Positions 753 through 49,000 of a stretch of DNA of 64,000 nucleotides are shown here, piece by piece. The notes below the pieces were generated by a model, which saw only the letters and a program-made list of their open reading frames with translations, was not told the DNA's origin and did no database searches. Source of the stretch: an uncultured archaeon. Lineage in GTDB: Archaea > Thermoplasmatota > Penumbrarchaeia > JASLWR01. Both the position numbers and the translations under genes were made by a program. Each line of letters begins with the position of its first letter. Within the stretch, counting starts at the first letter, position 1. The stretch lies in the NCBI GenBank assembly GCA_964342815.1, contig CAYFHS010000002.1, positions 216,790 to 280,789 of the forward strand, given 5' to 3'.

Positions 753-1340
753 TTGATTCCAGGAGGGAAGAACATTTCTCTGTCTGCCTTATGTAGGATA
801 TTTCGTTCATTCTCCCCGTTCTATCTATCCCATCACCCGAACTGCAGGCATTACCGGGATGACGTAATTAAGATCGGCGGAAAAAATATCTGCGGTGGAT
901 GTTTCTTTCTTTATTTCGGACTTATAGTTACGATCCCGCCACTGATTTTGCTGGGCGTTTACGGCTTTCTGAGTCCGCTCCGCCTGGCAATGGTCGGTTC
1001 ATTCATGATCATGCCCACCCTCGCAAGGACCTTCATGCGTTTCCGTTCGGTGTTTTTGCGGAGGTGTGTGAAGATATTCACCGGAGCGGGAGTTCTTCTT
1101 CTTGCCGCGATCCCCATCATTGCCGGCGGGTCGTTATGGCTGAGATATTTATATCTCCTATCTTTGGTCACGATGCTGGCTATGATCAGGTATCTTCAAG
1201 CGGCGAATTTTAGAAATATATGCTTCAGGTGCATTTACCATGGGGATTTTTCCCGATGTACGGGTTTTCGGGAGGTAGCGGAGAGATTGAGGAAGAACGG
1301 CTGTGATCCGTCCCGAATATTGAAAAAACGAAATTTTTGA
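753..1340 (+). CDS. Multi-pass membrane protein with Cys/His metal-binding motifs (DUF2085-like)
   Basis: About 4 hydrophobic helices; HHPNC...ICGGC near the N-terminus and CFRC...RC near the C-terminus. Confidence 0.6.
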   Translation: MIPGGKNISLSALCRIFRSFSPFYLSHHPNCRHYRDDVIKIGGKNICGGCFFLYFGLIVTIPPLILLGVYGFLSPLRLAMVGSFMIMPTLARTFMRFRSVFLRRCVKIFTGAGVLLLAAIPIIAGGSLWLRYLYLLSLVTMLAMIRYLQAANFRNICFRCIYHGDFSRCTGFREVAERLRKNGCDPSRILKKRNF

Positions 1341-1440
1341 TTTACCCATCACATGGCTCTGCTGATATTTTTCCTTACGTTCGGTGAAAACGGCTTAGGC
1401 ATGAGAAAACGAACATACACTCATACCCGAGTTAAACGTA

Positions 1441-1558
1441 AAGTCAGGCACATTTGGACTGACTTCTTGGTAAAGACGTGCCCGCTTTGCTCCGCAACAC
1501 TAGTGTTGCTGCACCCTCGGCAAGTATGCCTACGGGTGCCAGAATGGGACGGCTTTAC
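1441..1558. other. Structured intergenic element, copy 1 (multi-hairpin; ncRNA or ssDNA element)
   Basis: Hairpin aagtcag/ctgactt (1441-1465), outer stem gtaaag/ctttac (1470-1558), 16-bp palindrome gcaacactagtgttgc (1494-1509), hairpin gcaccc..gggtgc (1511-1539); core homologous to 40573-40635. Confidence 0.7.
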
Positions 1559-1614
1559 ACGTAAATCCACCAGTAAAAAATAAATATAATCTCAATTACT
1601 TCATTTCGAGATCG

Positions 1615-2406
1615 GTGATGCAAATGGGGAAAGTAAGCAAATACGTTCGAGACGCAAAAATGCCTAAGGTCTTTTCAGAGACCATTGTTAGAGAATATCC
1701 GGTAAAGGTCTCCCGGAAATGGTTCGTAAAAAAGATGAAAGAATGGTTCAAGGGCCAACGTTACGAGGTTGAGGTGGAGAGGGATGAGGTTTCCGACAAG
1801 TTAAAGGGAATAATTGGTTTTAAAAAAGGAATTAAGATAGCTCTCGAAGAGCAGTTTTCCATGTCCGTCAAGCACAAGGGGTCGCTGACGATCGTGAAAT
1901 TTGAGTTCTGGGGCCGGACACAGAAAAAGGCGGGAATGCTGACCTTCGCCACATTCGGCGCCGCCGCGCTGGTGGGTGCGGCCTCCATCACATCCCAGAA
2001 GTTGGAAGCCAAGAAGTTCTGCGCTCGATTTACAGAATATTTGGATTCGATCATGGCAAATTATTCCCCTTCAGGAAAAACCGAAAAGCCCGCCGCCCCG
2101 CTGCCCCCGCCGCCTGCGACAGAAAATACCTGTCCGCACTGCCAGGCTTCCGTCCAACCGGGCTGGAAAGCATGCCCCGCCTGCGGCAAGACGATACTGG
2201 ACGGTTCTTCGGATTGTACTTCCTGCGGAGCCGAGATGCAGCCGGGCTGGAAAGCGTGTCCCGCCTGCGGAAGATCCGCATCTTCAGCACGATCGGGTAC
2301 CAAAAAAACATGCCTTTCCTGCGGTCAGCAGGTGGATATTCGCTATAGCATATGCCCGTACTGCAGCCAACCCACTTCTCGTCAGTCGGAGCCAGTGGGC
2401 TACTAG
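1615..2406 (+). CDS. Double zinc-ribbon (DZR) repeat protein
   Basis: Repeated CxxC...CxxC ribbons (CPHC..QPGWKACPAC twice, CLSC..CPYC) after a Pro-rich linker. Confidence 0.85.
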   Translation: MMQMGKVSKYVRDAKMPKVFSETIVREYPVKVSRKWFVKKMKEWFKGQRYEVEVERDEVSDKLKGIIGFKKGIKIALEEQFSMSVKHKGSLTIVKFEFWGRTQKKAGMLTFATFGAAALVGAASITSQKLEAKKFCARFTEYLDSIMANYSPSGKTEKPAAPLPPPPATENTCPHCQASVQPGWKACPACGKTILDGSSDCTSCGAEMQPGWKACPACGRSASSARSGTKKTCLSCGQQVDIRYSICPYCSQPTSRQSEPVGY

Positions 2407-2473
2407 ATACGGAAGAATAAAAAGTACATTGATACAAGTTTTCAGTAGAGGCCCGGCGATAAAAACTTGACGG

Positions 2474-3121
2474 TCACATCCGCAGTATGTCGATGTGGTT
2501 CTCCGATTTCTCCACCCGCACCTTCGCCCCCTCGTAGACCTCCACCTCGTTATCGGTATACTCGACGGAGTACCGCTTTCTCGGGTCTTTGGTGGACCTG
2601 CCGTCGATATATTTTATCTGCGTATCCGGCGGATAACTGAACGGCAGATGCCCGTGCTGGTAGTTGATTATCGAGGTTCCTTTTTCCTTCACCTTCATCT
2701 TGTCGTTGCCGATCTTTATTCCGAACATGCCCTTTTTGAACTCTTCGTCTATTTCGAAGTTCAGGAAATAATCGCCGTCATCGTATTCCAGCCACCCCAC
2801 CCTGCCGTCGTTGAATTTTAAAAAGTACTCCTGCCAGGTCCAGCCGTCGGAGTCGCGGTATTCGATGACGCCCTTGATGACGAATCCCTGGTTGTTGTAG
2901 AAGCCCGCCGTATCTATGCCAAGAGGTCCGCGGTCCCGCGGGCCGTAGCTTATCTTCGTCTTTTCGAGAATTTCTTCCGCCTGGAACTCCTTTCGGTGCT
3001 CCTCGGACACTATGGCAGTACCGCAGTAAGGACACGAAACGGTCCTTACACCGGCTACTCTCTCCACCGGGGCGGAACAACTGGGACATTCAACCGTACC
3101 TACGGAACCCATGATAAACAC
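2474..3121 (-). CDS. Zn-ribbon + DUF4178-like protein
   Basis: N-terminal CPSC..CPYC; WQEYFL..G..GWLEYDDG segment typical of DUF4178. Confidence 0.7.
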   Translation of the reverse strand: MFIMGSVGTVECPSCSAPVERVAGVRTVSCPYCGTAIVSEEHRKEFQAEEILEKTKISYGPRDRGPLGIDTAGFYNNQGFVIKGVIEYRDSDGWTWQEYFLKFNDGRVGWLEYDDGDYFLNFEIDEEFKKGMFGIKIGNDKMKVKEKGTSIINYQHGHLPFSYPPDTQIKYIDGRSTKDPRKRYSVEYTDNEVEVYEGAKVRVEKSENHIDILRM

Positions 3122-3425
3122 CTTCGAATAATACCGAAAGAAGATAACCGGTTTATATCTAATAAGTTTTACTGCATAATGGTACGTACCATTTATGGAG
3201 ATTCGGGAGAATCAGGGATTTGAATATCTTCTGTAGGCGAGAACTTGTTAGTTAAGCGAGGTCGCAGGTCCCGAGTGCAGTTTTTGATCCGTGGGTGTTT
3301 AATATCTAATTCTTTTAATCTTTTCTTTCTCTTTAAGTCATCTGATTCCTAAAACTGAAAACTCTTTTATATAAGAAAACCCTTATTTTAGAAAAGAGTT
3401 TCAAGTCAATCATCAAGGAGTTTAT

Positions 3426-5372
3426 ATGTATTCCAAAAGAGCTGTTACCCTGGCATTTACCTTGGTCCTCCTCTCATCATATTGTATCATCGGTTTTGAT
3501 CTTACTCAATCAGAGAAAAGGGAAGCGCGTCTATCCACTAGCGTGATAGAGGGGGAAAATGATCCATACATCAGAACCAGATTCGCAGGCGGGAATGGTA
3601 CTGGGGAAAATCCGTATCAGATATCGAATGTATCGCAATTGCAGGACATGAATCTCGATCTGTCTGCGAATTATACGTTGGTTAATGATATTGATGCATC
3701 CGAGACGAGGGAGTGGAATAATGGGAAAGGATTTACACCTATAGCGAATGACACAAATTCGACTAATAATTCTTTTGATGGAACATCATTTGCCGGAAGC
3801 TTAGATGGTAAAGGATACCACATAACTGATTTATATATTAATAGGTCAACAGAGATGTTCGTTGGTTTATTTGGTCAAACCATTAAGATAGGGTTAATCA
3901 GTAATATCACATTGATAGATATCCGCTTAAATGGTAAAGATAATGTCGGAGGAATTGTTGGAAAAAACTATGGATTGGTGTTAAATTGCTCTGTAACAGG
4001 AAATGTGACTGGCATTTCTGATGTAGGTGGGCTTGTTGGGATTAACTGTGATACTATCCAGAACTCCTCTGCAACAGGCAATGTAGATGGCAATCGGGTC
4101 GTAGGTGGACTTGTAGGGGGTAACTCAGCCATGATACAGAATTGCTCCGCCACAGGCAGTGTGAAAGGAGTAGAATTTACTGGTGGATTGGTAGGATGGA
4201 ACTATAATGGAATAATAAAGAATTGCTCCGCGACAGGAGTTGTGAAGGGATCTTATATCGTAGGTGGATTAGTAGGATTGAACGACAACACAGTTGAGAA
4301 CTGCTATGCAACAGGAGATGTAACTGGAAATAAATCTGTCGGGGGCCTAGTAGGAGAGAATCCCGACCTAGTTAAGAACAGCTACGCAACAGGAGATGTC
4401 TCTGGAAATACTTCTGTCGGTGGATTGGTGGGATCAAGCCGAGGAAATGTGATCTTCCCTATTGGATTTGGAAGAATAGTGAACTCCTTTGCAACAGGAA
4501 ATGTGACTGGAAAAGCTTCGGTCGGCGGATTGATGGGAAGCAATTCAGACAAAGTACAAAACTGCACGGCAACAGGGAATGTAGATGGCAATCGGTATGT
4601 AGGCGGACTTGTTGGAAGTAATTGTGCCATTATACTGAATGGTTTTGCAACAGGAAATGTGATTGGAGTTGGTTTTACTGGTGGACTTGTGGGATCTAAC
4701 AGTGACCCTGGAAGTATCATGAACAGCCATTCAACAGGCATTGTGAGTGGAGCAAATAATACTGGAAGACTGGTTGGATATAATTCGGGCATTGTTGAGA
4801 ATGATACATTGCCCGCTTTAAAATTCGGTTCTAGTATCGAAGTATCTACAATAGATCAAAACCTTCATCGAGAAGAATTAAAACCAGACCCAAATTGGGG
4901 TAGTAATTATCGAGTCCTGCTTGGCCATAGGTATACCATTACATTTTCGATTGAAAATACGGGTAAAGTTGATGCCTACAATATTACAGTGAACCTAAAA
5001 ATGGTCTATTCCTCAGGTAATTCAGATTTAATAAGAATGGATTTCGGAGATAACTTAAGCCTCATTGAGATCAAGGCCGAAAGCAACTTAACATTGGACT
5101 TTGATTGGTCACCTCATCGATATGGTGAGTATTACATGATGCTATTGACCATTGACCCAAATGACGAAATACAGGAGGTTGACAAGGACAACAATAAATT
5201 AGAGTTTATGTGGTTTAGGACCGAAGAGAAGCCAGGGACAACTCATGAAGATGTTGATTGGTCTTCAATCTTGGGACCCAACATTTCATTCTGGTCAGTT
5301 TTTCTTCTCGTGTTATGTTCATTATTGATATTTTTCATATTTATTTGGATTAAGAAAAAAGCCAAACTATAA
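3426..5372 (+). CDS. GLUG-repeat surface protein with CARDB-like domain and C-terminal membrane anchor
   Basis: Signal-like N-terminus; FAGGNGT..NPYQI; more than 10 GGLVG..G...NCSATGNV repeats; C-terminal hydrophobic helix followed by KKK. Confidence 0.88.
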   Translation: MYSKRAVTLAFTLVLLSSYCIIGFDLTQSEKREARLSTSVIEGENDPYIRTRFAGGNGTGENPYQISNVSQLQDMNLDLSANYTLVNDIDASETREWNNGKGFTPIANDTNSTNNSFDGTSFAGSLDGKGYHITDLYINRSTEMFVGLFGQTIKIGLISNITLIDIRLNGKDNVGGIVGKNYGLVLNCSVTGNVTGISDVGGLVGINCDTIQNSSATGNVDGNRVVGGLVGGNSAMIQNCSATGSVKGVEFTGGLVGWNYNGIIKNCSATGVVKGSYIVGGLVGLNDNTVENCYATGDVTGNKSVGGLVGENPDLVKNSYATGDVSGNTSVGGLVGSSRGNVIFPIGFGRIVNSFATGNVTGKASVGGLMGSNSDKVQNCTATGNVDGNRYVGGLVGSNCAIILNGFATGNVIGVGFTGGLVGSNSDPGSIMNSHSTGIVSGANNTGRLVGYNSGIVENDTLPALKFGSSIEVSTIDQNLHREELKPDPNWGSNYRVLLGHRYTITFSIENTGKVDAYNITVNLKMVYSSGNSDLIRMDFGDNLSLIEIKAESNLTLDFDWSPHRYGEYYMMLLTIDPNDEIQEVDKDNNKLEFMWFRTEEKPGTTHEDVDWSSILGPNISFWSVFLLVLCSLLIFFIFIWIKKKAKL

Positions 5373-5561
5373 TATAAAATCATATTTCAACTTCTTTAGG
5401 ACGGCACGGGCTAAGTAATTCATTTCCACACAATATCTATTTTTACAAAGCTCAATCGTTCGACAACATTCCTACAAAAAAAAATTAAATATAGAAAAAG
5501 TATTAGCAAAGAACATATATAAGCGATGATTAACCGCAACCAATAATACTGTGGTGATGTA

Positions 5562-5840
5562 ATGAAAATCAATATTGAAGAAGAGACCATAGAGCTTACC
5601 CCGGAAGTATGGAAGGGCGAGACCGCATTGAAGGAAGATATTAAAAGCAAGATCGACATTGGAGATTACGATGTTGTGGAGGAATCCCTGGCATTGCGTG
5701 AGCTCACTTCAACCATGGAAGGATACACCAAGATCGAACTGAAACTTTCCAATACTTTCATCGAAGAATGCCATGAGAAGGCCAACGCAAGCGGAGTTAC
5801 TTTCTGGGAACTCGTAAGAGGGATCATTTTAAAAGAGTGA
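5562..5840 (+). CDS. Hypothetical protein (92 aa)
   Basis: GGTGA RBS before ATG; fills the gap convergent with the dCMP deaminase gene. Confidence 0.6.
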   Translation: MKINIEEETIELTPEVWKGETALKEDIKSKIDIGDYDVVEESLALRELTSTMEGYTKIELKLSNTFIEECHEKANASGVTFWELVRGIILKE

Positions 5841-5865
5841 TTCATCGGAGCCCAGGATTTTTTTT

Positions 5866-6312
5866 CTATTCATAACCTACAAGACTTAATTCGATACCCA
5901 ATTCTTCCGCCGCCTCCAGTATCCGCTCGTCGCGATAAAATTCTCCGTATTTTATACTTGTAATGCCAGCATTCGCTATCAATTTAAAACAGTTCCAGCA
6001 GGGACTGGCAGTTATGTATATCTCCGAGCCTTCTATTTTGACCCCATTCTTGGCAGCCTGTATGATGGCATTCGCCTCGGCATGTGTAGTCCTTACGCAG
6101 TGGTCCCCCTCCATCAGGTGACCGATCTCATCACAGTGAGCGAGCCCCCTTATACTTCCGTTATACCCTGTTGAAAGTATTGTTCTGTTTCGAACTATTA
6201 GGCTTCCAACATGCTTTCGGTCACATGTGGCACGTGTAGCCACCCGGTGCGCGATCTCCATGAAATAGGCGTCCCAATCCGCTCTCTTTTTATTTTTTTC
6301 CACACTGGACAT
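5866..6312 (-). CDS. dCMP/cytidine deaminase family protein (ComEB-like)
   Basis: HAEANAI and PCxxC zinc motifs; STGYNG. Confidence 0.92.
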   Translation of the reverse strand: MSSVEKNKKRADWDAYFMEIAHRVATRATCDRKHVGSLIVRNRTILSTGYNGSIRGLAHCDEIGHLMEGDHCVRTTHAEANAIIQAAKNGVKIEGSEIYITASPCWNCFKLIANAGITSIKYGEFYRDERILEAAEELGIELSLVGYE

Positions 6313-6325
6313 TTCATCGCCCCCA

Positions 6326-7417
6326 TCATTCGTTATTATAGCTATAAACCAAATCTGAATCCGGCGACTCTACTCCACGGCTCCTGATGGTGATGGTATC
6401 CTCATTATTTATGGTACCTGCAACCTTGGCGGCGATACCGCTTGAAGCTGCCTTCTCCAATACCTTTTCGGGTTCATTGCTGATCAAAAGAATTCCCTGA
6501 CCCATGTTCCACGTGCGGTAAGCCTCCATATCGGATACGTTTCCCATTTCCTGAATGCTTCCCATGACGTCGGGACAGTCGAAAAGATCGGTTAACAGCG
6601 CTCCTTTTCCCGTCCTCCTCAGCAGGCGGGACAGCTTACCCGGAACCCCGCCTCCCGTCACGTGGACGATACCGTTGATATTCACCTTTGCTTTATCACC
6701 GTACCCGCCGATCATCTTTAATATCGCACTGCTGTATATTGTAGATGGATACATGATCCGGGACGTAAAAACCTCTCCCGCTTCCAGATGCCAATCCGGA
6801 CCGTACTGTTCTCTCATGATATTTCTTACAAGGCTCAAGCCGTTTGATCGAAAACCTTTCTCCTGCAGCGCCACTACTGCATCCCCGCTTTTGATATCCA
6901 TTCCGCTTATCAGTTTTTCTTTCTCCCGCACCCACAGAACGAAGGCTCCCCAGTTGTAGTTGAAAGGGCCGTAACCCCCTATCCTCCCTCCCAGCTCCGC
7001 CATTTCACCGTTGATAACAGCCACGTTTGCTGTCTTGGCGGCCTTAATCAGACCGCCGGCCAGCTGTTTTACTGATTTTATTCCGTCCTGTAAAGACGCC
7101 GCATCGAGGATATTTCCAACAAGAAGAGGCTCGGCACCGTCCCGAACCGCGTCGTCGCATACCATGGCAAGCAGATCGAAGGCCATGGTGGAGTGGTCGC
7201 CGAGACGCTCGGCGATCTCGATCTTGGTTCCAACTCCATCGGTGTTCATTCCCATAACTGTTCCCGCACTTAAGCCGCCAACCGAGATGTATCGGATACC
7301 GGAAAAATCATCATTTGGAACCATGATCTCGCCAAGCCTTCCCTCGCGGTTCTTCCACGTCTCCCTGCAGGCGCGGTACATTATTTTCGAGGCAGTATCG
7401 CCCAGATCAATATCCAC
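6326..7417 (-). CDS. purM: Phosphoribosylformylglycinamidine cyclo-ligase (AIR synthetase)
   Basis: TDGVGTK, GEMAEL, GFRSNGLS, HVTGGG, TWNMGQG motifs; purine cluster context. Confidence 0.93.
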   Translation of the reverse strand: MDIDLGDTASKIMYRACRETWKNREGRLGEIMVPNDDFSGIRYISVGGLSAGTVMGMNTDGVGTKIEIAERLGDHSTMAFDLLAMVCDDAVRDGAEPLLVGNILDAASLQDGIKSVKQLAGGLIKAAKTANVAVINGEMAELGGRIGGYGPFNYNWGAFVLWVREKEKLISGMDIKSGDAVVALQEKGFRSNGLSLVRNIMREQYGPDWHLEAGEVFTSRIMYPSTIYSSAILKMIGGYGDKAKVNINGIVHVTGGGVPGKLSRLLRRTGKGALLTDLFDCPDVMGSIQEMGNVSDMEAYRTWNMGQGILLISNEPEKVLEKAASSGIAAKVAGTINNEDTITIRSRGVESPDSDLVYSYNNE

Positions 7418-7456
7418 CCCCGCATCCCGATAATTGCTGCCTTGATCTTTCGTAAT

Positions 7457-8890
7457 TCAGCACCTCCTCGAGCAGAGCCGGTCATTCTCTATCTCACTTA
7501 ACATTCCGTCCGAGACGGGCGTGGGATAATCTCCCGTGAAACAGCCCGTGCAGAAATTATTTCTAAACGATTTCGCATCGTTGACGGCCTCCACCATACC
7601 CTCCATCGGCAGATAGATCACCGCGTCCGCTCCTATGAATTTTTCAATTTCATCCATGTTACGGTTGCCGGCCAGGAATTCCCCTCTCGTGGACATGTCT
7701 ATACCGTAGACGCAGGGATGTTTGAGCGGAGGACTGCAGGACGCAAAAAATACCTTTTCGGCGCCGCTTTCCCGGGCTATCCTCACTATCTCCCGGCTGG
7801 TGTTTCCCCTGACGATGGAGTCATCCACCATGAGTACGTTTTTTCCGTTGAATTCCATTCTTATGGCGTTGAGCTTACGGCGGACGGACTTTTGCCTCTC
7901 ATTATCCGAAGGCATGATGAACGTTCTTCCTATGTATCGGTTCTTTACAAGCCCCTCTCTGTAGGGAATATCGCAAACTCTAGCGATGGCGATGGCGGCG
8001 GGACGCGCCGAATCCGGAACCGGAATAACCACGTCTATGTCAAGATCACTCAACGAGGGGAGGAGGGCCTTGCCAAGCCGTATCCTCGTCTCATACACGC
8101 TGATACCGTCAATGAATGAATCGGGACGCGCGAAATAGATATACTCGAATATACACGGATACGGCTCCCGCTCGATCAATCTCCTTTTATGCACATTTCC
8201 CTCTAGATCTATGAAAACGGCGCCGCCCGGGGGAATATCTTCTTTACTGCGGTAACCCAACATGTCAAGCGGAGCGCTCTCGGAAGCAACGGCGTAGCTT
8301 CCCGTTGGTTGATGTCTGCCCATTATAAGCGGTCTTATTCCGTAAGGATCACGAAAAGAAAGCAAACCTTTCCCTGCAATGATGGCCAATACGGAATATC
8401 CCCCGGCCACCCTTGTAAAAACATCCTTCACCGCGCCAAATATATTTTCCACGTCCGTGCCCCGTAGCTTCCCAAGAGCATCTGCGAAAACGTTGAGTAT
8501 CGCCTCGACGTCGCAGGTGGAATTCAGCCTGCGCTGGCCTTTCTCCATCAACTCATGCTTGAGCTCCGGGTAATTTGTAACCTGCCCGTTATGGGCCATC
8601 ACTATTCCGAACGGGTGGTTCACCATGAAAGGCTGGGCATCCTCGGGAGTTGAGTCCCCGTATGTGGGATAGCGCACATGCGCCAGCCCCACGTTTCCCT
8701 TCAATCTCGAAAGGTGCTTCTCATCGAATACATCCCTTACGAGTCCGTATCCCTTCTTCATCGAAAAGGAAATTCCGTCGAAGGTTGCCGCCCCAGCCGC
8801 ATCCTGCCCCCGATGCTGGATGGCAAGCATTCCTTCGTATAGATTTACGAAAACGTCGTCAACCCCGATTATTCCAATAATTCCGCACAT
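7457..8890 (-). CDS. purF: Amidophosphoribosyltransferase
   Basis: MCGIIG Ntn N-terminus (start set at the ATG before Cys), QHRGQD, VDDSIVRGNT PRPP motif. Confidence 0.97.
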   Translation of the reverse strand: MCGIIGIIGVDDVFVNLYEGMLAIQHRGQDAAGAATFDGISFSMKKGYGLVRDVFDEKHLSRLKGNVGLAHVRYPTYGDSTPEDAQPFMVNHPFGIVMAHNGQVTNYPELKHELMEKGQRRLNSTCDVEAILNVFADALGKLRGTDVENIFGAVKDVFTRVAGGYSVLAIIAGKGLLSFRDPYGIRPLIMGRHQPTGSYAVASESAPLDMLGYRSKEDIPPGGAVFIDLEGNVHKRRLIEREPYPCIFEYIYFARPDSFIDGISVYETRIRLGKALLPSLSDLDIDVVIPVPDSARPAAIAIARVCDIPYREGLVKNRYIGRTFIMPSDNERQKSVRRKLNAIRMEFNGKNVLMVDDSIVRGNTSREIVRIARESGAEKVFFASCSPPLKHPCVYGIDMSTRGEFLAGNRNMDEIEKFIGADAVIYLPMEGMVEAVNDAKSFRNNFCTGCFTGDYPTPVSDGMLSEIENDRLCSRRC

Positions 8891-8905
8891 AATCATCACT
8901 TTTAT

Positions 8906-10237
8906 TTAATGCTTGAAACTTCTCTGGCCAGTAAATATCATGACAGCGTCGTGCTCGTTGCAGGCTACGACCGATTCATAATCCCTGTTCGATCCGCCGG
9001 GCTGTATCACAGCGCTGATTCCCTCATTAAGACCCACGTCGACTCCATCCCGGAACGGGAAAAATGCGTCGGAGACCATTACGGCTCCCTTGAGGCTGCC
9101 ATGCTGCTGGGCAACTTCGTCGTTTATGATCTCCAGCATTGCTCTCGTACGCCCTTTTTCGGGCTCATCCGTTGCTTTTCGGTTCTCCTGCAGCAGAATA
9201 TTGTAGGCCATTCCATATCTCTCGAAACAAATTCTATCCTTTAGCTTGGTGTATGCCTTGTCACGGGCTATGGCGGCTACGCCAACCCGGTCCTGCTCGC
9301 CGGTCCCGATACCCACGGTAGCTTCATTCTTTACATAAATGACCGAATTTGAGGTAATTCCGGATTCCACGAGCCAGCCGAACAGCATGTCCCGGTATTC
9401 TTCCCCTGTTGGCCGCCTTCCCATGGAGACACTTTTCCCAGTTTCCGTAAGTTTCCCATCCTTTATCATACGCTCGGGAATATCATGTGGCACGACCCCC
9501 GTGCTCTTCAGGTCGTCAACCGATCGTATTCTCGGCAGGAAAGACGTCTGGACTATGACGCCTCCGTCGCAGAGGGATTTGATCTCAGGAAAAACTGCTC
9601 TCTGCCACTCGTGAAGCCTCTCGATATTCGTGATTCTCAATATCCGCAGGTCCTTTTTTCTCCGTAATATACTAAGTGCGCCGCTCTGGTACGCAGGAGC
9701 AACCACCACCTCGGAGTAATTTTTCACGATCAGTTCAGCGGTGGCCTTGTCGCAGGGTCGGTTAAGAGCTATGGCACCTCCGAACGCCGCCACCCGATCG
9801 GCCATGTTCGCTTCGTAATAGGCTCCTGCAAGTGTTGGTCGTGTTGCCACGCCGCAGGGGTTGTTATGTTTCATGATGACCACAGTTGGTTTGTTCGGGA
9901 AATATTTCAATATGTTCAGAGCGCCGTCGACGTCAGTCAGGTTGATCTTTCCGGGATGTTTTCCGGACTGCAAAAGCTCCATGTCGCAGACCAGGCCCAT
10001 ATTGGGTTTGATGAACTCAACTCCGCCAAGGATCAAATTGCCATCCACCGGCCTGTACAATGCCGAAGGCTGTCCGGGATTCTCCCCGTAACGCAGCCCC
10101 TTCTCTTTTCCATCGATATCCCACAGAACCTTTTGATAATGAATGGTCATATCACCAAAGGTGATTTCCATCGTTGCCGGAAAAATATCGTTTTCCATTG
10201 CCCTGTACATTCTTCTCATATCCACCATTTCAATCAC
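8906..10237 (-). CDS. purH: AICAR transformylase (PurH C-terminal domain only, no IMP-cyclohydrolase domain)
   Basis: LRYGENP, KHNNPCG, AFGG, SDAFFPFRDG, QPGGS; lacks the N-terminal MGS-like IMPCH domain. Confidence 0.9.
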   Translation of the reverse strand: MIEMVDMRRMYRAMENDIFPATMEITFGDMTIHYQKVLWDIDGKEKGLRYGENPGQPSALYRPVDGNLILGGVEFIKPNMGLVCDMELLQSGKHPGKINLTDVDGALNILKYFPNKPTVVIMKHNNPCGVATRPTLAGAYYEANMADRVAAFGGAIALNRPCDKATAELIVKNYSEVVVAPAYQSGALSILRRKKDLRILRITNIERLHEWQRAVFPEIKSLCDGGVIVQTSFLPRIRSVDDLKSTGVVPHDIPERMIKDGKLTETGKSVSMGRRPTGEEYRDMLFGWLVESGITSNSVIYVKNEATVGIGTGEQDRVGVAAIARDKAYTKLKDRICFERYGMAYNILLQENRKATDEPEKGRTRAMLEIINDEVAQQHGSLKGAVMVSDAFFPFRDGVDVGLNEGISAVIQPGGSNRDYESVVACNEHDAVMIFTGQRSFKH

Positions 10238-11265
10238 CTACCTCCGCAGGAATCCTCTTCGGTAATCCCCACCGTTTGGTGGGGTGGAGAAGAGGAAGCA
10301 GATTCCTGCGTTTTCGAGGATGAAACCCACAGATCATCTGTGGGTGATTCATCGCACCTGTTTATGATATAATGATCTATTTTTCCCTCATTTAGGAAAT
10401 ACCGACCATGCCCACTTTGTTCCGCAGAATCAGAGATACTGCTGCACCTTCGATTTCCCTTGGAAATCTGCTGGTCCAGTCGATTTTTTTCGTCAATCGC
10501 GAGAACAGTACCCCCCTCTTTTTTTGGGCTGCTTTTTCCAAAAAAGTAGTTTTGGGCCGCTTTTTTTTCTAAAAAAAGTGGTTTTTCACCATCAATGAAA
10601 AACGCAGCGAGAGACACCCTGAAATCATTTCCATCAACCGGAGCAAGAGCTTTGTAGACGCCAAGGGCGGCATCTCGGACATTTTTGAAGGGAAGTTCAC
10701 AAATCGGCGGTTCGCCTTCGAACGACGGGAGCGGATTTACATTATCTCCCGAATAGGTGGCGATCATTCGCCCGAAACCCGGGCGCATGGAAAATTCGAA
10801 ATTGTATTTTTCTCTGTAATCCTCCCCGCCCCGTTTTAAAATACCCAGGGCAAATTTGTTGGACTGAGGAGTAATAAAACCGCTTATTCTCGGTGTATAA
10901 TGGGGCGGGTCCGGCTCATAGCTCCACTGATCCAAACCTTTATCCAGCACTTCAAGCGGGCCCATTCCATCTTCGTATTTCTCCATGAGGGAAAGCGTAT
11001 GTTTTCCGTTAGAGACACCGATACCTCTTTTTATCGAAACTGCCGGGTAAATAAGAAGATCGGGATCACCTTTTCTCAATTCCTCTTCATCAGTGGGTTT
11101 CACCAGTAATTCGTTGTCACTGAATTCGAACTTTCTTGCCTGGCTCGCAGGAGATCGGCCCGTTATCGCATATATGACGACGGTGCGCGTATCCGATGCG
11201 TTCCTACCAACAATAATAATTCGGCCAGGGTATGTCATTTTTTCAATTTCTCTTAAGCTCGTCAT
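10234..11265 (-). CDS. purO: IMP cyclohydrolase (PurO-like Ntn fold) with extra insertion/extension
   Basis: YPGRIIIVG, ITGRSPASQAR, YEPDPPHYTPRISG motifs; overlaps the purH start. Confidence 0.8.
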   Translation of the reverse strand: MTSLREIEKMTYPGRIIIVGRNASDTRTVVIYAITGRSPASQARKFEFSDNELLVKPTDEEELRKGDPDLLIYPAVSIKRGIGVSNGKHTLSLMEKYEDGMGPLEVLDKGLDQWSYEPDPPHYTPRISGFITPQSNKFALGILKRGGEDYREKYNFEFSMRPGFGRMIATYSGDNVNPLPSFEGEPPICELPFKNVRDAALGVYKALAPVDGNDFRVSLAAFFIDGEKPLFLEKKAAQNYFFGKSSPKKEGGTVLAIDEKNRLDQQISKGNRRCSSISDSAEQSGHGRYFLNEGKIDHYIINRCDESPTDDLWVSSSKTQESASSSPPHQTVGITEEDSCGGR

Positions 11266-40361: not shown

Positions 40362-40718
40362 TAGAGGGGTTGCGCCCGTTTCACTTCGGCGCATAAGATA
40401 GATAGTCGATGAATCAACATTCATCTGTATCCTCGGCATATATACTTGCGGATACGCCTGATATCTCGGTAAATAGAAATCTCATTATGATATATATTGG
40501 GTCGCCTAGGTCGACCCTGGGCCGTCACGGCCCCTTCGTATATTTTATGTTATTTTTTGGAATCGGGCCTGCGCCCACTACGTTCCGCAATACCTTCGGC
40601 ATTGCTGCGCCCTCGGGATGTAACCCTGCGGGTGTTTCTTACGTCGCCCGTAGGCTCACCAGCCGAGGGCTCAGGGGTATCTTTGATGCCCCGGAGTGAA
40701 ACGGGAGCAGGCCCTCTA
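40362..40718. mobile_element. GC-rich structured element with imperfect inverted repeats (MITE-like or ncRNA), contains copy 2 of the 1480 element
   Basis: agaggggttgcgcccgtttcacttcggcgcat (40363-40394) is an imperfect inverted repeat of 40686-40717; multiple internal hairpins; lies between convergent genes. Confidence 0.55.
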
Positions 40719-40802: not shown

Positions 40803-43800
40803 TCACCCCATCTTCCCCTTCACCCCGCAGCTCGGGCACTTGATCTTCTTCGCATTCTTTTCAACGAAGAACGATGCATCGCATTTCGGGCATTCCACCT
40901 TTTCGGCCGCACCGGACAGTTTATCGAGTATCTCCTTTTTGGACACTTTCGTCACTGTCTTCTTCCGGCCCGCGTCCGCCGGTGCAGGGGGAAGTTTTTT
41001 CGGTTCGGGCGGCTGCTGTCTCTTCTTGAGTTTATCGAACTCCGCCGCCGGAACGTCTCCCCTGGCGCCGCAGTGCGGACAGGTGATATTCTTTCTGGTT
41101 CTCGTGGTAAAACCCTTGTTGCACTTTGGACACCTTATCTTGACCCCGTCATCGATTATCTCCGACGCGGTTTTTGCCGGGAGAAGCTTTTCTTTTTTTG
41201 CCGGTGCCGTCTTTTTCCTTTTCCGCTCGCTCAATGCCCAGTCCTTTCTTTTCTGCAGCAGCTCGGGAACTTCAGTGGTGATAGTTCCGGTGGCCCCGCA
41301 CTGGGGGCACTTCATGGCCAGCGGTCTCTCGCCGTAATCAAGCACGTCAAAGGTCTCGCTGCACTTTGGGCATATTATCGGCTGGGTGATAGGTTCGATA
41401 AGCTCCGTAATGGGAACGTCCTCTTCTATCTCTACCTCTTCCTCCACCACCTCCGCAACCTCCTCGACATCCACTTTCACCGAGCCAGCCTCCAGCTTTC
41501 CCACTGCTCCTCCCCGTTTCCTTTTCTTGATCACCACTATCAGAAATACAACAATGACCAAAATGATACCTATGAAACCGTACTGGTACATGGCGCCCCC
41601 GGGGATGAACGGAATGAATTTCATCCCATCATCCGCAGTTTCCTCAGGTTCCGGCTCGACGGGTATTGGGGCTCTGCGGGTTATGTTTACCGAATCATAC
41701 GCTGTATAACCGGGATAATCGTCGTTGATTATTTGGGCGAATATCTCGTAGTCTCCTTTGGATTTCATGTTAAAGGTGGTGACGATCTCCTCGAAGTCCT
41801 CCGTGAACTCCTGCGAATCTATCTCCTCATCTTTCATTTTAAGGATGATCACCACCTTATCGATAAAATCGCCTTCCGCCTCAACCGTGACATCGACGTT
41901 TCGCGTCTTGTATGGGAATTTTTTACCGTCACCAGGGTTTGTGATCTCGATGGAAGGAGTGTCCAGTATCACCTCGTCCCCTCCCGCTTTAATTACCGTC
42001 ACATCGAGGGTGACAGTATCATTGCCGCCCTTCTTGTCGTCCACCGTGAGCGTAATGACGTATGTGCCTTCGAGATCGTAGACGTGGGTTACTTCTTTTC
42101 CGTTTTCTTCTTCCGTAATGCCGTCTGAATCGTCGAAATCCCAGGTGAAATCGAGGTCGTCCTCATCTTCATCCTCGGAATCCTCAGCTGTAAGGACTAC
42201 CTCGGTCCCCTCCTTTATCTCACCGGTATTTTTCAGTTTGATATGAGCCACCGGCGGCGTGTTGATTAAAACCGTCAGCGTGTCATTCGCACTGGCTCCT
42301 TCCCCATCCGTAACCATGAGAGTCACAGTGTATTCGCCGGCATCTTTATACGCATAAACGGGAGCCGCTCCGGTCTTCGTCTTACCATTGCCCATATCCC
42401 ACGAGTAGGTGAGATTGTCCACCTCGTCCCCGTCAATAGCTCCGTTCCCGTCAATGTCGTCGTCCGGATCGAAACTGCCGCTGCTATCGAATTTTATATC
42501 GTCCTTAATATTGCCGAGGATATCCTCTCCGGCCTCGGAGATCGGGGGAGTGTTTCTTACTATAATGACGACGTCCAGCTCCGTAGAGTCCTTCCCGTTG
42601 CGGCCGTCGAGAACCCAGAGTATCACTATATACTCACCGGCTTCCTCGTATGTGTGTTCAACCTCTTCCTCCACTGCGTCGATCTCACCATCGCTTTCGA
42701 AATCCCAATTGTATTCCAGTTTGTCCCCGTCCTCGTCGCTGGAGTTCCCTGCGAAGAAGGTCATGGGCTCATCAACATATCCTGCGGAAGTACCTATGAG
42801 TACGGCTATTGGCGGTTTGTTGACGATGATGATCTGGTCGTCGGTGTCATTGCCGCCGAAAGGATCCGAAACGGTCAGGTTGACGGTGAACTCTCCCCGC
42901 TTTGTGAATTTATATGTGGGGGAAACGCTCTGCGAATCCACCTCGCCGTCACCGTCGAAATCCCATGCAAAATGGAGAGGATCTCCTTCTTTGTCGGTCC
43001 CGTTACCGTTGAATTGAACCGTTGTGTTGACATTTATTTTATTATTATCGACATTGATCCTTGCCTTAGGTGCAATATTTTCGACGATCTCGATGTCAAT
43101 GGTATCCGTGTCGTTTGCAGCACTTGGATCCTCTACCATGAGCGTGGCCACGTATGCCCCCGTGCTGTTGAAGGAATGTTTTGGAGTCTTGTTGAAATCG
43201 TCCCAAACTCCGTCGGACTCGAAGTCCCACCTGTACGAAAGCGAATCCCCGTCCGGGTCGGAGGATTCCGAAGCATCGAAGGTGACTTCCTCGTTAACCC
43301 TGGCATCGGTCTTGCTCACGTTAGCACTGGCATTGGGCGCTTCGTTTGGCGTAAGGGTGACAAAAATGGTGACCTTTGCTGTAGAGCTTGCACCGTGAAT
43401 GTCCGATACTGTAAGCGTTATATTATGTGTACCGGCCAACAGGTTTCTCGAAAAGACCGGCTGTGTTGAGAGCTGGCCTGCCTTGTCCGATCTCCAGACG
43501 TAGCCGTCCAGTTCCTCGTTCCCGTTGGGATCCGTAGTGGCGCTCCCGTCAAAACTTATGGAGTCGGATGTGAAGTAGTTTTCACCGTCTGCGGGAGAAC
43601 TTATTATGGTCTGAGGCGGCGAATTGCCAGAGAAGGAAAGCGCGTAAACGTCCTTGTTCCCGGGCTCAATAGAGTCCCAGGTGACCCAGAAACCGCCCTT
43701 AGCGTCCTGGAAGATACAGGGATCGACGTTGTTCCGGAAATCAGTCGGTACAACCTTTGGCTGTGAGTAATGGATCAGGTCGATCGAATCGGAGAGATGA

Positions 43801-46098: not shown

Positions 46099-49000
46099 TC
46101 ATAGTTCGATATGGAAATCTTCATCATCATAATCATCATCTGCCGTTTCCGTCTCACCTACTTCCTGTACCGGGATTTTTCCTTCGACTGGACCGTCTTT
46201 CCCTCCGATTGCTTTTTCCGTTTTTCTTGTGCAGTCCCATGGGACTTTTCCATTGGCGTTACCCTCCTCGGCTTCCGGCACCGTGACGTAGTTATCCGAT
46301 CCGCTGTTCTCATCTCTATGTATGTCACTTGAAATATCCTTCGATGATATTTCCTCCTCGTTGCTTTCGATCTCCGTGAAGCCAATGCCGCAGTTCGGAC
46401 ATTCTCCCACTCTCTCGAAACATGCCAGGTGATATTTTTTCCCACATGAACAGGTCACCAAAGGAAGTCCTGTCTTTACGATACCGAAACAGATGCTGCA
46501 TGAGACCGATTTCTCGGCAGGTGCCACCCGCCCCTTATTTACCTCTGCGTTTTCGGTTGACGTTAGGATTTCCATGTGCTCGGCAGCTCCGTCCTCAATC
46601 CTTCCCACAAGCTCTCCTTCCTCATTCGACGGCATCTTGGCCCTGATCCTAGTGACACCGCCTTTCAAAGTTCCACTGCCCCCTTTTTCCGATAAATGAT
46701 CAGGGGCCACTACCACCGGTCCCCTTGATTCCGATTTCCTGGTATATCCGTAATGTATTCCATTGGGTTCCAATTCGATCTCGGATCTGTCTTCCATGAC
46801 ATCATTGGCGATGCCGTGGGAGGGAATATATTCGATTTCCGGCTCCAGCACTTCCTCCTCGCCATCTTCCCGATCTTCAGGATCCGGATCTTCGCCTGCC
46901 CCGTCCCCTTTTTCAGGTACGGATCCGCTCCGACTTTTTCTTCTATGAAAAAGGAAAATGAGCACGACCAGCAGGATAAGTATGAAGATACCCCCGCCGA
47001 TCCACAACCATTCCAGTCCCCCACCGCCTCTTTTATCTTCATCATCCTTATCGTCAATGTCGTCGTCATCCGACCCCACCACCTCATCAGTTAGCAAAAT
47101 GTTAACATTCAGTTCACGCTTACCACCGACGAAGGCTGCAGTTATGTTCAGCGGGTAATTGCCGATATCGAGCTTTGTCGTGTTGTGAATATTAATCTGT
47201 ACCCCGGTCTGTCCGCCCCTTGGAACGGTGATGCTCCGATTGAATGACACATGCCCCCACAGTGGACCGGTGATAGAGAGCTTAACCTCTATGTTGGTGT
47301 TCCCGAGATTAACCAGAGTGAGATTCAAGGTGGTATTCCGTCCTCTTATTATCACAAGGTCGTCGGAATTGAAATGAATGTCAAGGTTGTAAAGTACCTC
47401 GTACGAGCTGTCCAGGGTAAAGTTCCAGACCCCTGACGAGCAGATACCGGGTATCTCGCCGGCAAGGGGAATAACCTTCCACCAGTAAACGGACTTGTCT
47501 TCGAGGTCAGTTAGCAGGTACCACGTTCGGGTGCTGTTGCCCAGTTCTTCAAGAGTATGTTTTTCATTGCCGAAATATATCTGGTATGTCAGAGATGGAA
47601 GGGGATTGATCACCCTCCACGACAGGTTTACATCGGTGGTATTCACTGCAGCGCCATTTTCAGGAAAGAGAAGTTCCACCTGCGGCATGGCGGAAGTATT
47701 GATGATGAAGCTCCATGTACTGCCGGTGCTCAGGGCGGAATTCTCACCGTCGTTACCCACGACGTACCAATAATAAGTCGCCCCGTCCTCAAGGTCCCTA
47801 ACGTCGAGTTTGGAAGATTCCAGACTCCCCATGTAGAAACCGGGTGGATCGCTTTTGGACAGATAAACCTCGAAACTTGTGTTTTCGTCATCGACATCGA
47901 TGAAATCCCATGAAAGTGTAACGTCTCTCGAAAATAATATACTGTTGTTTGCAGGATGAGTCAGGGTGACCACCGGCGGATCATTCACCGGGGTTACGGT
48001 GACGGGTAAGGATATGCTGGATGAATTTGAGCGATTTTCAGCCTCGAACACTGTGGCGTTTAACATGATGTTGCCAAAGTAATCTTTTTTTGGTATGATT
48101 GTGATGTGATGGTCATGGTCCAAGGATGCAGTTATATTTTCATCATCGCACGTTACAGAGAAATCCAAAGTGTCCTTCTCATCGTCGGTGACATATGATC
48201 CCAGGGAGTAATGGGTGGTCATTTCCCGGTCTTCTTCCAAAACAATGGCCGGGGGAAATTTGCGCCATGCGGGAAGGTCGTTCACTTCGAAGACGGTGAC
48301 GTTGAAAATATTGCTCGTGGCCATTCGTCCATAGAGATTGGTGCACTTCACCTTGAATCTGGTTATACCGGTCCAGTTCACGGAAAGGGATATTACGTTG
48401 AGCCATTTCCCTTCAACTTCCGAAGTGATGTTGGCATCGTCAAACCCAGTGACGTTATAGATCGGATCCCTTATTCCGGAATAGGGGTCGCTGAAATGAT
48501 GATCAAGGTTCAAAAGGTTCTTAGTAAGGTTCTCTTCAGGAATCATGAGATCTGGAATATCTTGCATCAATTTCGGGGATTTCTCCGGGGTCCAGTTCAG
48601 CGCCCAATCAATTAACATAGGTGTACGGGTACGATTTGATCCCATAAATCCTTCAAGGTATACCACTGGATGTTCCCACGTGTTTATTTCCAAGAGGTCA
48701 AGGGAAATTGTGCCGGACGTCCCGTTGTCCCACGCTAATGGCTGCCCCGTGGCCGCGTCGTGAATGGACAGGTTCAACATGGTACCGTTATCTACCCGGC
48801 GGCTTGCGTGGAAAACATCCCAGGTGTTATTTTCCGGTACGAAGATATTCGCGGAACGGAAAGTGGAGTTTTTGTGCCCCGTGGAAGCACGATCCATTAT
48901 CTCACTGGGTCCCATTGCCCGGTCGTAAAGGATCATCTCGTCCATGATGCCCTGAAAAGAGCTGTTTTTCATACCTGCGGGATAGCCGCCATCGCTTTCC

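What the first reader, a model, noticed from the sequence alone, without database searches (positions are those of the whole stretch)
1480..1539. Two-copy structured non-coding element with compensatory base changes (copies at 1480-1539 and 40573-40635)
Two intergenic segments 39 kb apart align at about 44 of 60 positions (GCCCRCT..GYTCCGCAAYAC-loop-GYRTTGCTGCRCCCTCGG.A.GTA..CCTRCGGGTGY). Both fold into two adjacent hairpins inside an outer stem closed by CCC/GGG. Two substitutions are compensatory: C1498-G1505 becomes T40591-A40601, and C1521-G1528 becomes G40617-C40624. Structure therefore looks conserved beyond sequence. It did not match the riboswitch, SRP or RNase P consensus motifs I can recall. 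Several cGNAg strings (ccgtagg, ccgcagg, ccgaagg) recall stable ssDNA mini-hairpins, so it may be an undescribed ncRNA family or an ssDNA-recognised mobile/REP-like element.
Basis: seen in the sequence. Interest (0 to 1): 0.78.

Follow-up and report, generated by a model that had tools for sequence, protein, structure and literature searches.

The report
Mobile hairpin repeat family in archaeon
The two look-alike 60-base hairpin segments are real. They are two of well over a hundred copies of a small palindromic repeat scattered through this marine archaeon and its close relatives, and it behaves like selfish mobile DNA rather than a dedicated RNA gene.

Summary
Window 1480-1539 and 40573-40635 align, fold into the two hairpins described, and both compensatory changes are real. 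The "two-copy" premise is wrong.

- **Copy number:** a covariance model built from 24 copies finds at least 143 matches in this 4.35-Mb genome, five of them in the window. It finds at least 130 each in two sister species and one or two in the fourth species of the order. Apart from single matches in two genomes, nothing appeared in 37 more distant genomes of the class or phylum, or in viral contigs.
- **Rfam:** no match.
- **Structure:** covariation is very strong (94.9% of pair cells paired against 70% in shuffles).
- **Repeat-like behaviour:** copies are intergenic and clustered, show no orientation bias relative to genes, and break contigs.
- **Mobility:** copy B is exactly absent from the orthologous site of a congener, with no target duplication. 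Copy A sits inside a 65-nt repeat unit that also occurs empty. The core is found inserted into many small "carrier" hairpins that also exist empty.
- **Targeting:** the bases left of each insertion resemble the element's own 3' end, and both covary with an internal C-rich segment.

Best reading: a REP/PATE-like non-autonomous element, probably moved as single-stranded DNA by an enzyme not yet identified. Earlier agents in this scan reported sibling hairpin-repeat families elsewhere in this genome.

The parts
1481..1538 (+). Copy A core (58 nt). It contains a mini-hairpin (G1484-C1485 / G1489-C1490), hairpin 1 (1494-1499 / 1504-1509), an internal C-rich segment X' (1511-1516) paired with the 3' end (1534-1539), and inner hairpin 2 (1519-1522 / 1527-1530).
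   Evidence: Sequence; fold; covariance-model hit 1473-1543 at 76.9 bits; boundaries set by comparison with empty 65-nt units.
1438..1480 (+). Left part of a 65-nt carrier repeat unit (GTAAAG...GACGTG) that copy A interrupts.
   Evidence: Uninterrupted units occur elsewhere, often in tandem and at contig ends. The whole unit plus copy A is missing at the orthologous site of G001.
1539..1561 (+). Right part of the same 65-nt carrier unit (CCAGAATGGGACGGCTTTACACG).
10403..10481 (+). A third copy of the core. It lies inside a roughly 195-nt composite element (about 10383-10582).
   Evidence: Covariance-model hit at 51.1 bits. The composite occurs at five unrelated loci and is absent from the orthologous site of G001.
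40367..40459 (+). A fourth, degenerate copy with extra sequence in hairpin 1. It is conserved in G001.
   Evidence: Covariance-model hit at 30.1 bits; aligned with G001.
40574..40634 (+). Copy B core (61 nt). It is exactly absent from the orthologous site of the congener G001.
   Evidence: Covariance-model hit 40566-40639 at 82.5 bits. G001 reads GGGCCTGCG directly followed by TTTCTTACG.
40645..40705 (-). A fifth copy, inverted and tail-to-tail with copy B. It is present in both G000 and G001.
   Evidence: Covariance-model hit 40640-40713 (-) at 63.1 bits; alignment with G001.
40565..40573 (+). 5' arm (GGGCCTGCG) of the carrier hairpin that holds copy B and the inverted copy.
   Evidence: The empty carrier GGGCCTGCG-ACGTAAGAAA-CGCAGGCCC occurs at several other loci.
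40635..40644 (+). Loop remnant of the carrier hairpin (TTTCTTACGT) between the two cores.
40706..40714 (+). 3' arm (AGCAGGCCC) of the carrier hairpin.

Best explanation
The segment is one copy of a lineage-restricted, high-copy family of roughly 60-nt non-coding, non-autonomous mobile DNA elements. In kind it is close to bacterial REP/BIME elements and to the palindrome-associated elements (PATEs) and small mobile repeats of haloarchaea.

Anatomy of a core: a 5' CCCRY start, a 2-bp mini-hairpin, hairpin 1, an internal C-rich segment (X', GCRCCC), hairpin 2, then CTAC-GGGYG at the 3' end.

Shown:
- The core is gained or lost precisely, without a fixed target duplication.
- It lands inside or beside other small hairpins, which produces nested mosaics, tandem arrays and tail-to-tail doublets.
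- The few bases left of the insertion resemble the element's own 3' end, and both covary with X'.

Inferred:
- It moves as folded single-stranded DNA.
- It is cut and joined just 3' of a short G-rich motif that X' recognises by base pairing, as in IS200/IS605-type 'peel and paste' transposition.
- The enzyme is supplied in trans and has not been identified.

Any benefit to the host (RNA stability, termination, DNA structure) would be secondary and is untested.
For: **Copy number and distribution**
- At least 143 matches in G000.
- At E<=1e-6, 113 in G000, 131 in G001, 130 in G003 and 1 in G002. These four species are the whole order held in the collection.
- Nothing was found in 37 more distant genomes of the class or phylum, apart from single matches in two of them.
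- The pattern scan gave several hits each in two archaeal MAGs, one titled Thermoplasmatota, confirmed with the model.

**Repeat behaviour**
- 120 of 156 hits lie in the roughly 10% of the genome outside long ORFs, with no orientation bias (32/27 in co-directional, 24 in convergent and 15 in divergent intergenic regions).
- 51 neighbouring pairs lie within 300 nt: 34 tandem, 14 tail-to-tail, 3 head-to-head.
- Many copies sit at contig ends.

**Mobility**
- Copy B is missing exactly in G001, with a shared base of at most 1 nt at the junction.
- The 65-nt unit plus copy A is missing in G001.
- The 195-nt composite at 10383-10582 is missing in G001 and occurs at five unrelated loci.
- About 50 of 69 tested flank-junction queries matched an uninterrupted sequence elsewhere in the genome, and many of these are carrier hairpins that also exist empty.

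**Structure**
- Across 78 distinct copies from several genomes, 94.9% of pair cells are paired against 70.1% in shuffles.
- There are 284 double-sided changes against 80 in shuffles, and slid controls give 30-50% paired.
- An additional mini-hairpin covaries (GC:37 / AU:29).

**Targeting**
- Column 118 of X' covaries with both the left flank (CG:30 / UA:29) and the 3' end (AU:31 / GC:29).
- The last 6 nt of the left flank resemble that copy's own last 6 nt (3.37 against 2.90 matches, permutation p = 0.0004, 41 de-duplicated groups).
- 27 of 71 left flanks end like a family 3' end or like the complement of X'.

**Single-strand signal**
- The complementary strand folds more stably in 61 of 65 distinct cores.
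- An A.C mismatch at one fixed position of hairpin 1, present in 25 of 78 distinct copies, reads as G.T on that strand.
- CTAC next to hairpin 2 reads as GTAG on that strand, which is the REP tag (PMC3733652).

**Candidate enzyme**
- IS200-type TnpA genes exist in the two sister genomes rich in copies, and not in the copy-poor one.
Against: - No Y1 (IS200/RAYT), TnpB or Y2 transposase is found in this assembly. The assembly is only 89% complete.
- The IS200 genes of the sister genomes have different end hairpins and no copy of this element within 1.5 kb. No mobilising enzyme is therefore linked to the element.
- The strand signals conflict. The geometry (target 5' of the element; longer distance from the end to the hairpin on the 5' side) fits the + strand as the active strand. 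The better folding and the GTAG tag are on the - strand.
- Much of the strand asymmetry comes from one mismatch position. Over the 14 modelled pairs it is only 35 A.C against 20 G.U.
- Some flanks do not fit the complementarity rule, for example the GAG flanks on C71/C74 and the 195-nt composite (listing).
- Copy A's junction has a 5-nt direct repeat (GTGCC), so its boundaries are ambiguous.
- Presence/absence could reflect precise loss rather than gain.
- My gene calls are crude (longest-ORF tiling).
Confidence: 0.6

Rival explanations
1. The repeat spreads without a dedicated transposase. During replication or repair, a nascent strand ending in the short G-rich motif switches template to another copy that has the same motif upstream. 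It copies the core through the matching motif at the core's 3' end and then returns. Hairpins promote the stalling and the switching.
For: - Short direct repeats of variable length (1-5 nt) flank the cores: GTGCC at copy A, G at copy B, and GGTG, AGGAG and GATG elsewhere.
- No transposase is linked to the element.
- Insertions sit at hairpins.
Against: - Dispersal of near-identical units to unrelated loci and conserved, precise ends across diverged subfamilies are more typical of enzyme-defined ends.
- Irregularities at fixed positions in the stems suggest a recognised structure.
- The family is abundant in three species but nearly absent in the fourth species of the order, which suggests a factor that can be lost.
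Confidence: 0.17
2. The copies are genes or cis-elements for a structured RNA (for example a 3'-UTR stabiliser, a terminator or a small RNA), and the covariation reflects selection on RNA folding.
For: - Very strong covariation in three helices.
- More G.U-compatible positions on one strand.
- For bacterial REPs, G.T pairing has been read as a hint of RNA function (PMC3733652).
Against: - No orientation preference relative to flanking genes.
- Copies are nested inside other repeats and inside each other.
- Copies are present or absent at orthologous sites.
- Module sequences occur inside a DnaJ-domain ORF.
- No Rfam family matches.
- Palindromic DNA repeats show the same covariation without any RNA role.
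Confidence: 0.12
3. The copies are protein-binding or DNA-structuring sites that the host has adopted (nucleoid organisation, supercoiling or replication signals), kept because they are useful rather than because they move.
For: - Intergenic location and conserved shape.
- Bacterial REPs bind gyrase and IHF (general knowledge, not tested here).
Against: - Copy number falls from more than 110 to 1 within one order, and copies differ between congeners at orthologous sites. Both argue against an essential role.
- Nothing here tests binding.
Confidence: 0.06
4. The resemblance between the two window segments is chance, or a local duplication with no wider meaning.
For: Single-sequence folding energies are unremarkable.
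Against: There are hundreds of matches at 40-82 bits in three genomes.
Confidence: 0.01

Closest known systems
REP / BIME / REPIN elements of Proteobacteria, mobilised by RAYT (Y1 HUH) transposases (PMC3733652; Bertels and Rainey 2011 and Ton-Hoang 2012 recalled, not re-read here)
   Same: - Short imperfect palindromes with a GTAG tag beside the stem.
- More than a hundred mostly extragenic copies.
- Subfamilies that differ by compensatory stem changes.
- G.T pairs.
- Tandem and inverted clusters, including doublets that spread as units.
   Different: - The host is an archaeon. The 2013 survey mentions archaea only in its reference list.
- The unit is a roughly 60-nt composite of three covarying stems, not a single hairpin.
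- No RAYT gene was found, and no transposase gene is flanked by copies.
- Cores are nested in the loops of other repeats.
PATEs (palindrome-associated transposable elements, including 52-bp 'terminal-only' forms) and SMR-A small mobile repeats of Haloquadratum walsbyi (PMC3119063)
   Same: - Archaeal elements without a transposase gene.
- No terminal inverted repeats.
- Palindromes near the ends.
- No target duplication.
- A longer distance from the end to the palindrome on the 5' side.
- A short targeting oligonucleotide 5' of the element.
- SMR-A elements insert into the palindromes of other elements, and their mobilisation is also unexplained.
   Different: - The hairpins here show no similarity to the ends of any resident IS200/IS605 element.
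- No TnpB was found in the order and no TnpA in this assembly.
- The phylum differs.
- The three-way covariation of flank, internal segment and 3' end has not been described for PATEs, as far as I could read.
IS200/IS605 family (IS608, ISDra2) single-strand 'peel and paste' transposition (general knowledge)
   Same: - Insertion 3' of a short motif without duplication.
- Subterminal hairpins.
- Cleavage sites recognised by pairing with an internal guide.
- Action on one strand.
   Different: - No transposase gene lies inside or beside the element.
- One internal segment appears to match both the flank and the 3' end.
- The active strand is unclear.
Small dispersed repeats of heterocyst-forming cyanobacteria (Elhai et al. 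2008, recalled from memory; not found in the paper library)
   Same: Very small repeats nested inside one another, with no known transposase.
   Different: - Those repeats are shorter (about 21-27 nt).
- They are bacterial and unrelated in sequence.
- The comparison was not checked against the paper.
Rickettsia palindromic elements and intragenic REPs (PMC3733652)
   Same: Palindromic repeats that can sit inside coding regions. Module sequences of this system occur inside a DnaJ-domain ORF.
   Different: The in-frame case here was not verified against homologues. RPEs carry a CGTC tag.

Membership tests
REP/REPIN (RAYT-associated) | Short imperfect palindrome with a conserved GTAG at one end | tested here: met
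   CTAC directly 3' of hairpin 2 on the + strand reads as GTAG 5' of the hairpin on the - strand. Counts in 78 distinct copies: T 72, A 59 (G 13), C 73.
REP/REPIN (RAYT-associated) | More than a hundred mostly extragenic copies, in clusters and inverted doublets | tested here: met
REP/REPIN (RAYT-associated) | A cognate RAYT gene, typically flanked by the repeats | tested here: not met
   There is no PF01797 or NF047646 match in G000. The Y1 genes of G001 and G003 score as IS200 (NF033573), not RAYT, and have no copy within 1.5 kb. G000 is 89% complete.
PATE / IS200-IS605-derived element | No terminal inverted repeats; palindromes near both ends; asymmetric end-to-hairpin distances | tested here: met
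   The ends are CCCRY... and ...GGGYG, which are not inverted repeats. There are 13 nt before hairpin 1 and 9 nt after hairpin 2.
PATE / IS200-IS605-derived element | Insertion without target duplication, 3' of a short specific motif | tested here: inconclusive
   Copy B has at most 1 shared base at the junction. Copy A has a 5-nt repeat. Left flanks end mostly in ATG, GTG or GCG, but with exceptions.
PATE / IS200-IS605-derived element | Palindromes related to the ends of a resident IS200/IS605 transposon | tested here: not met
   The end hairpins of the IS200 copies in G001 and G003 are unlike this element. There is no TnpB in the four genomes.
Classical MITE | Terminal inverted repeats matching an IS, and a fixed-length target duplication | tested here: not met
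Any Rfam RNA family | Match to a curated covariance model | tested here: not met
   No match at gathering score in the whole window, or at E<=1 in 1380-1620.
Integron attC site | Structured single-strand recombination site beside gene cassettes and an IntI integrase | not tested
   Considered only by analogy (shape conserved more than sequence, fixed irregular bases). No cassette-like context was seen around the window copies.

The most novel reading that the evidence does not exclude
The 60-nt core may be a minimal, self-guided mobile element. Its internal C-rich segment would pair both with its own 3' end and with the target, so each subfamily would carry its own address. The enzyme that moves it would not be a known HUH transposase, since none is linked to it in any of the three genomes rich in copies. 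This would be a new, programmable way of inserting single-stranded DNA in archaea.
Probability: 0.15. Interest if true: 0.8.

Novelty: new variant of a known kind. Interest (0 to 1): 0.45.

Why it matters
REP-like repeats are well studied in bacteria, but I found no description of them in marine Thermoplasmatota.

- **Genome assembly and size:** the family and its sibling repeat families fill intergenic DNA, build nested mosaics and break assemblies in this 4.35-Mb genome. This matters for anyone who bins or annotates these uncultured archaea.
- **False leads:** the repeats can be mistaken for structured RNA genes, as happened here and in other windows of this scan.
- **Testable hypothesis:** the covariation between flank, internal segment and 3' end gives a concrete hypothesis about how a transposase-free 60-nt element chooses its target.

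Tried and rejected
- **RNA evidence:** no RNA holder is listed among the public runs, so expression could not be examined.
- **Population-level gain or loss:** contigs of four marine DNA runs were laid on window 800-11200. The only joints (skips of 58-62 nt at 1475-1539) have short sides of 25-30 nt. They most likely come from other, empty 65-nt units, so they say nothing about this locus.
- **Viral carriers:** a pattern scan of viral contigs gave 12 loci, none confirmed by the model.
- **Bacterial hits:** the hits to bacterial records in the genome-wide pattern scan are single matches that the model does not confirm, apart from one weak 24-bit match.
- **Terminal stem:** a stem pairing the 5' CCC with the 3' GGG was tested and showed no double-sided changes. 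My first hand-drawn helices were off by one column and were replaced by the RNAalifold structure.
- **IS200 as mobiliser:** no copy of the element lies near the transposase genes. One of those genes is itself invaded at its 3' end by another small hairpin element.
- **IS91-type Y2 transposase:** found only in G001, and with an internal stop.
- **tRNA origin:** the resemblance of the complementary strand to a tRNA 5' end plus D arm was considered and dropped, because the stems do not correspond.
- **Zero-spacer tandem arrays:** these would be predicted by 'own 3' end as target', but are rare (0 of 71 fully annotated cores; 4 with a core-like start next door).

Full report
**1. The observation**

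Window 1480-1539 and 40573-40635 align with 53 invariant columns. On the + strand each folds into hairpin 1, then a second hairpin enclosed by a GCRCCC/GGGYGC outer stem. Rfam has no match at gathering score over the whole window, or at E<=1 around copy A. The folding energies of the single sequences are ordinary against shuffles, so the case for structure has to come from comparing copies.

**2. It is not a two-copy element**

- A BLAST search of the window's own genome gave dozens of hits, several of them at contig ends. The genome is 4.35 Mb in 116 contigs, 45% G+C and 89% complete.
- Iterated nhmmer gave 156 hits, 96 of them near full length.
- I aligned 24 copies (A2). RNAalifold predicted hairpin 1, the outer stem and hairpin 2, with double-sided changes in 12 of 14 pairs.
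- A covariance model built from that alignment (R1) finds at least 143 matches in the genome, with only 150 of about 1080 candidates scored.
- Five copies lie in the window: 1473-1543+, 10403-10481+, 40367-40459+, 40566-40639+ and 40640-40713-.

**3. Distribution**

- The order holds four species in the collection. At E<=1e-6 they have 113, 131, 130 and 1 matches.
- Of 37 more distant genomes of the class and phylum, two gave single matches and the rest none.
- An exact-pattern scan of 185,579 species genomes gave several hits each in only two records: a 'Thermoplasmatota archaeon' MAG and an 'uncultured archaeon' MAG. The model confirms these at 60-70 bits, with adjacent inverted doublets.
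- The remaining hits to bacterial records are single matches that the model does not confirm, apart from one weak 24-bit match.
- Viral contigs gave nothing.
- The DNA runs that hold the window are marine or seawater metagenomes.

**4. Structure**

- Counts were made on 93 model-aligned copies (78 distinct) from several genomes. 94.9% of pair cells form standard pairs, against 70.1% in shuffles.
- There are 284 double-sided changes against 80 in shuffles. Sliding the partner by one to three columns drops pairing to 30-50%. The alignment was fitted to the model, which favours the structure, but the margin is large.
- A third small stem near the 5' end also covaries (GC:37 / AU:29 and CG:36 / UA:29). 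It has 2 bp and a three-base loop. On the complementary strand the loop reads GAA or AAA.
- Hairpin 1 has an irregular position three pairs from the loop: A.T in 35, A.C in 25 and C.C in 12 distinct copies.

**5. Behaviour as a repeat**

- 120 of 156 hits lie outside long ORFs, which cover about 89% of the genome in my crude tiling.
- Orientation relative to neighbouring genes is unbiased.
- Copies cluster: 34 tandem pairs, 14 tail-to-tail and 3 head-to-head within 300 nt.

**6. Evidence of gain and loss**

Contig C70 of the congener G001 is syntenic with 165 kb around the window at about 80% identity. Over that stretch G000 has 7 hits and G001 has 12, and only two are shared.

- **Copy B:** it is exactly absent in G001. 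GGGCCTGCG is followed directly by TTTCTTACG, while the neighbouring inverted copy and the upstream copy are conserved. The junction shares at most one base, so there is no target duplication.
- **Copy A:** G001 lacks the whole 65-nt unit together with copy A.
- **The 195-nt composite:** the element around 10403-10481 is absent in G001 and occurs at five unrelated loci at high identity.

**7. Nesting and targets**

- Copy A interrupts a 65-nt repeat unit that occurs uninterrupted, often in tandem, on many contigs. Related copies carry further inserts.
- I joined the 25 nt on each side of every core and searched the genome again. About 50 of 69 junction queries matched an uninterrupted sequence elsewhere, and many of these are carrier hairpins that also exist empty. 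Examples are the hairpin GGGCCTGCG-loop-CGCAGGCCC in both orientations, the 65-nt unit, and hairpins of other family members.
- In the window, copy B and the inverted copy each follow GGGCCTGC(G/T) on their own strand of one carrier hairpin. This explains the tail-to-tail doublet.
- The last bases of the left flank resemble the core's own 3' end more than those of other copies (3.37 against 2.90 of 6 matches, p = 0.0004, 41 de-duplicated groups).
- 27 of 71 left flanks end like a family 3' end or like the complement of the internal C-rich segment.
- Column 118 of that segment covaries with both the flank and the 3' end.

**8. Strand**

- The complementary strand folds more stably in 61 of 65 distinct cores (mean 3.8 kcal/mol, Wilcoxon p = 2.6e-11) and has 105 G.U pairs against 30.
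- Much of this comes from the one irregular position. Over the 14 modelled pairs the count is 35 against 20.
- On that strand the element begins CRCCC-GTAG-hairpin, which is the REP arrangement (PMC3733652).
- The position of the target, 5' of the + strand, points the other way, so the active strand is not settled.

**9. Enzymes**

- No Y1 transposase or RAYT is found in this assembly. No TnpB is found in the four genomes.
- G001 and G003 have IS200-type TnpA genes and G002 has none. Their end hairpins differ from this element and no copy lies near them.
- A Y2 gene with a stop codon occurs only in G001.
- The link to an HUH enzyme is therefore inferred, not shown.

**10. Comparison with known elements**

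- **REP/BIME/REPIN:** the tag, copy number, clustering and compensatory subfamilies are shared. The RAYT criterion fails.
- **Haloquadratum PATEs and SMR-A repeats (PMC3119063):** these share the lack of terminal inverted repeats and of target duplication, the near-terminal palindromes, the longer 5' distance and the insertion into other elements' palindromes. The criterion of similarity to a resident IS end fails.
- The 2013 survey of GTAG repeats mentions archaea only in its reference list. A 2024 MITE review lists archaeal cases only in Sulfolobus, haloarchaea, Desulfurococcus and a few others.
- Earlier agents of this scan reported sibling hairpin-repeat families in other pieces of this genome and reached a similar reading.

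**11. Verdict**

The feature is real, strongly structured and not described in Rfam. It is a dispersed mobile repeat rather than a unique RNA gene. It is a new variant of a known kind, and the mechanism that moves it is still open.

Noticed in passing
window 1438-1561; also G000 contigs C54:1-175, C6:49700-49900, C17:65340-65530, C1:297020-297140: A 65-nt repeat unit made of two hairpins (GTAAAGTCAGG...CTGACTT and GTAAAG...CTTTAC). It occurs singly and in tandem arrays of 2-3 units, often at contig ends, and serves as a landing site for the core.
   Followed up: partly
window 10383-10582: A roughly 195-nt composite element with T-rich ends, containing one core and further hairpins. It has five near-identical copies at unrelated loci and is absent at the orthologous site of the congener.
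   Followed up: partly
G000:C12:59107-60270 (L124:108-1271): A 387-aa ORF with an N-terminal DnaJ domain has sequences of this repeat system (a core-like stretch and an ATAGAA-type hairpin module) inside its acidic, low-complexity middle part. This may be an in-frame insertion. It was not checked against homologues.
   Followed up: partly
L108:1376-1460 (G001:C65), with relatives at G000:C36:43040-43117 and C40:5027-5104: One IS200 tnpA gene of the sister species has another small nested-palindrome element at its 3' end, which changes its C-terminus. Copies of that element exist in G000, which has no tnpA in its assembly.
   Followed up: partly
G000:C2:150459-150925, against G001:C70:160311-160330: A roughly 450-nt block of mixed hairpin repeats is present in G000 where the congener has 19 nt.
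   Followed up: no
window 40803-46004 (-) and 46099-52206 (-): Two very large ORFs (1733 and 2035 aa). The first is rich in PKD and Ig-like domains and has zinc-ribbon motifs near its C-terminus. The repeat cluster lies just downstream of its stop codon.
   Followed up: no
L035:6069-6217, L051:6485-6633, L052:2897-3045 (uncultured archaeon MAG): Near-identical tail-to-tail doublets with no spacer occur at three loci of one relative. Doublets therefore seem to spread as units, as REPINs do.
   Followed up: no
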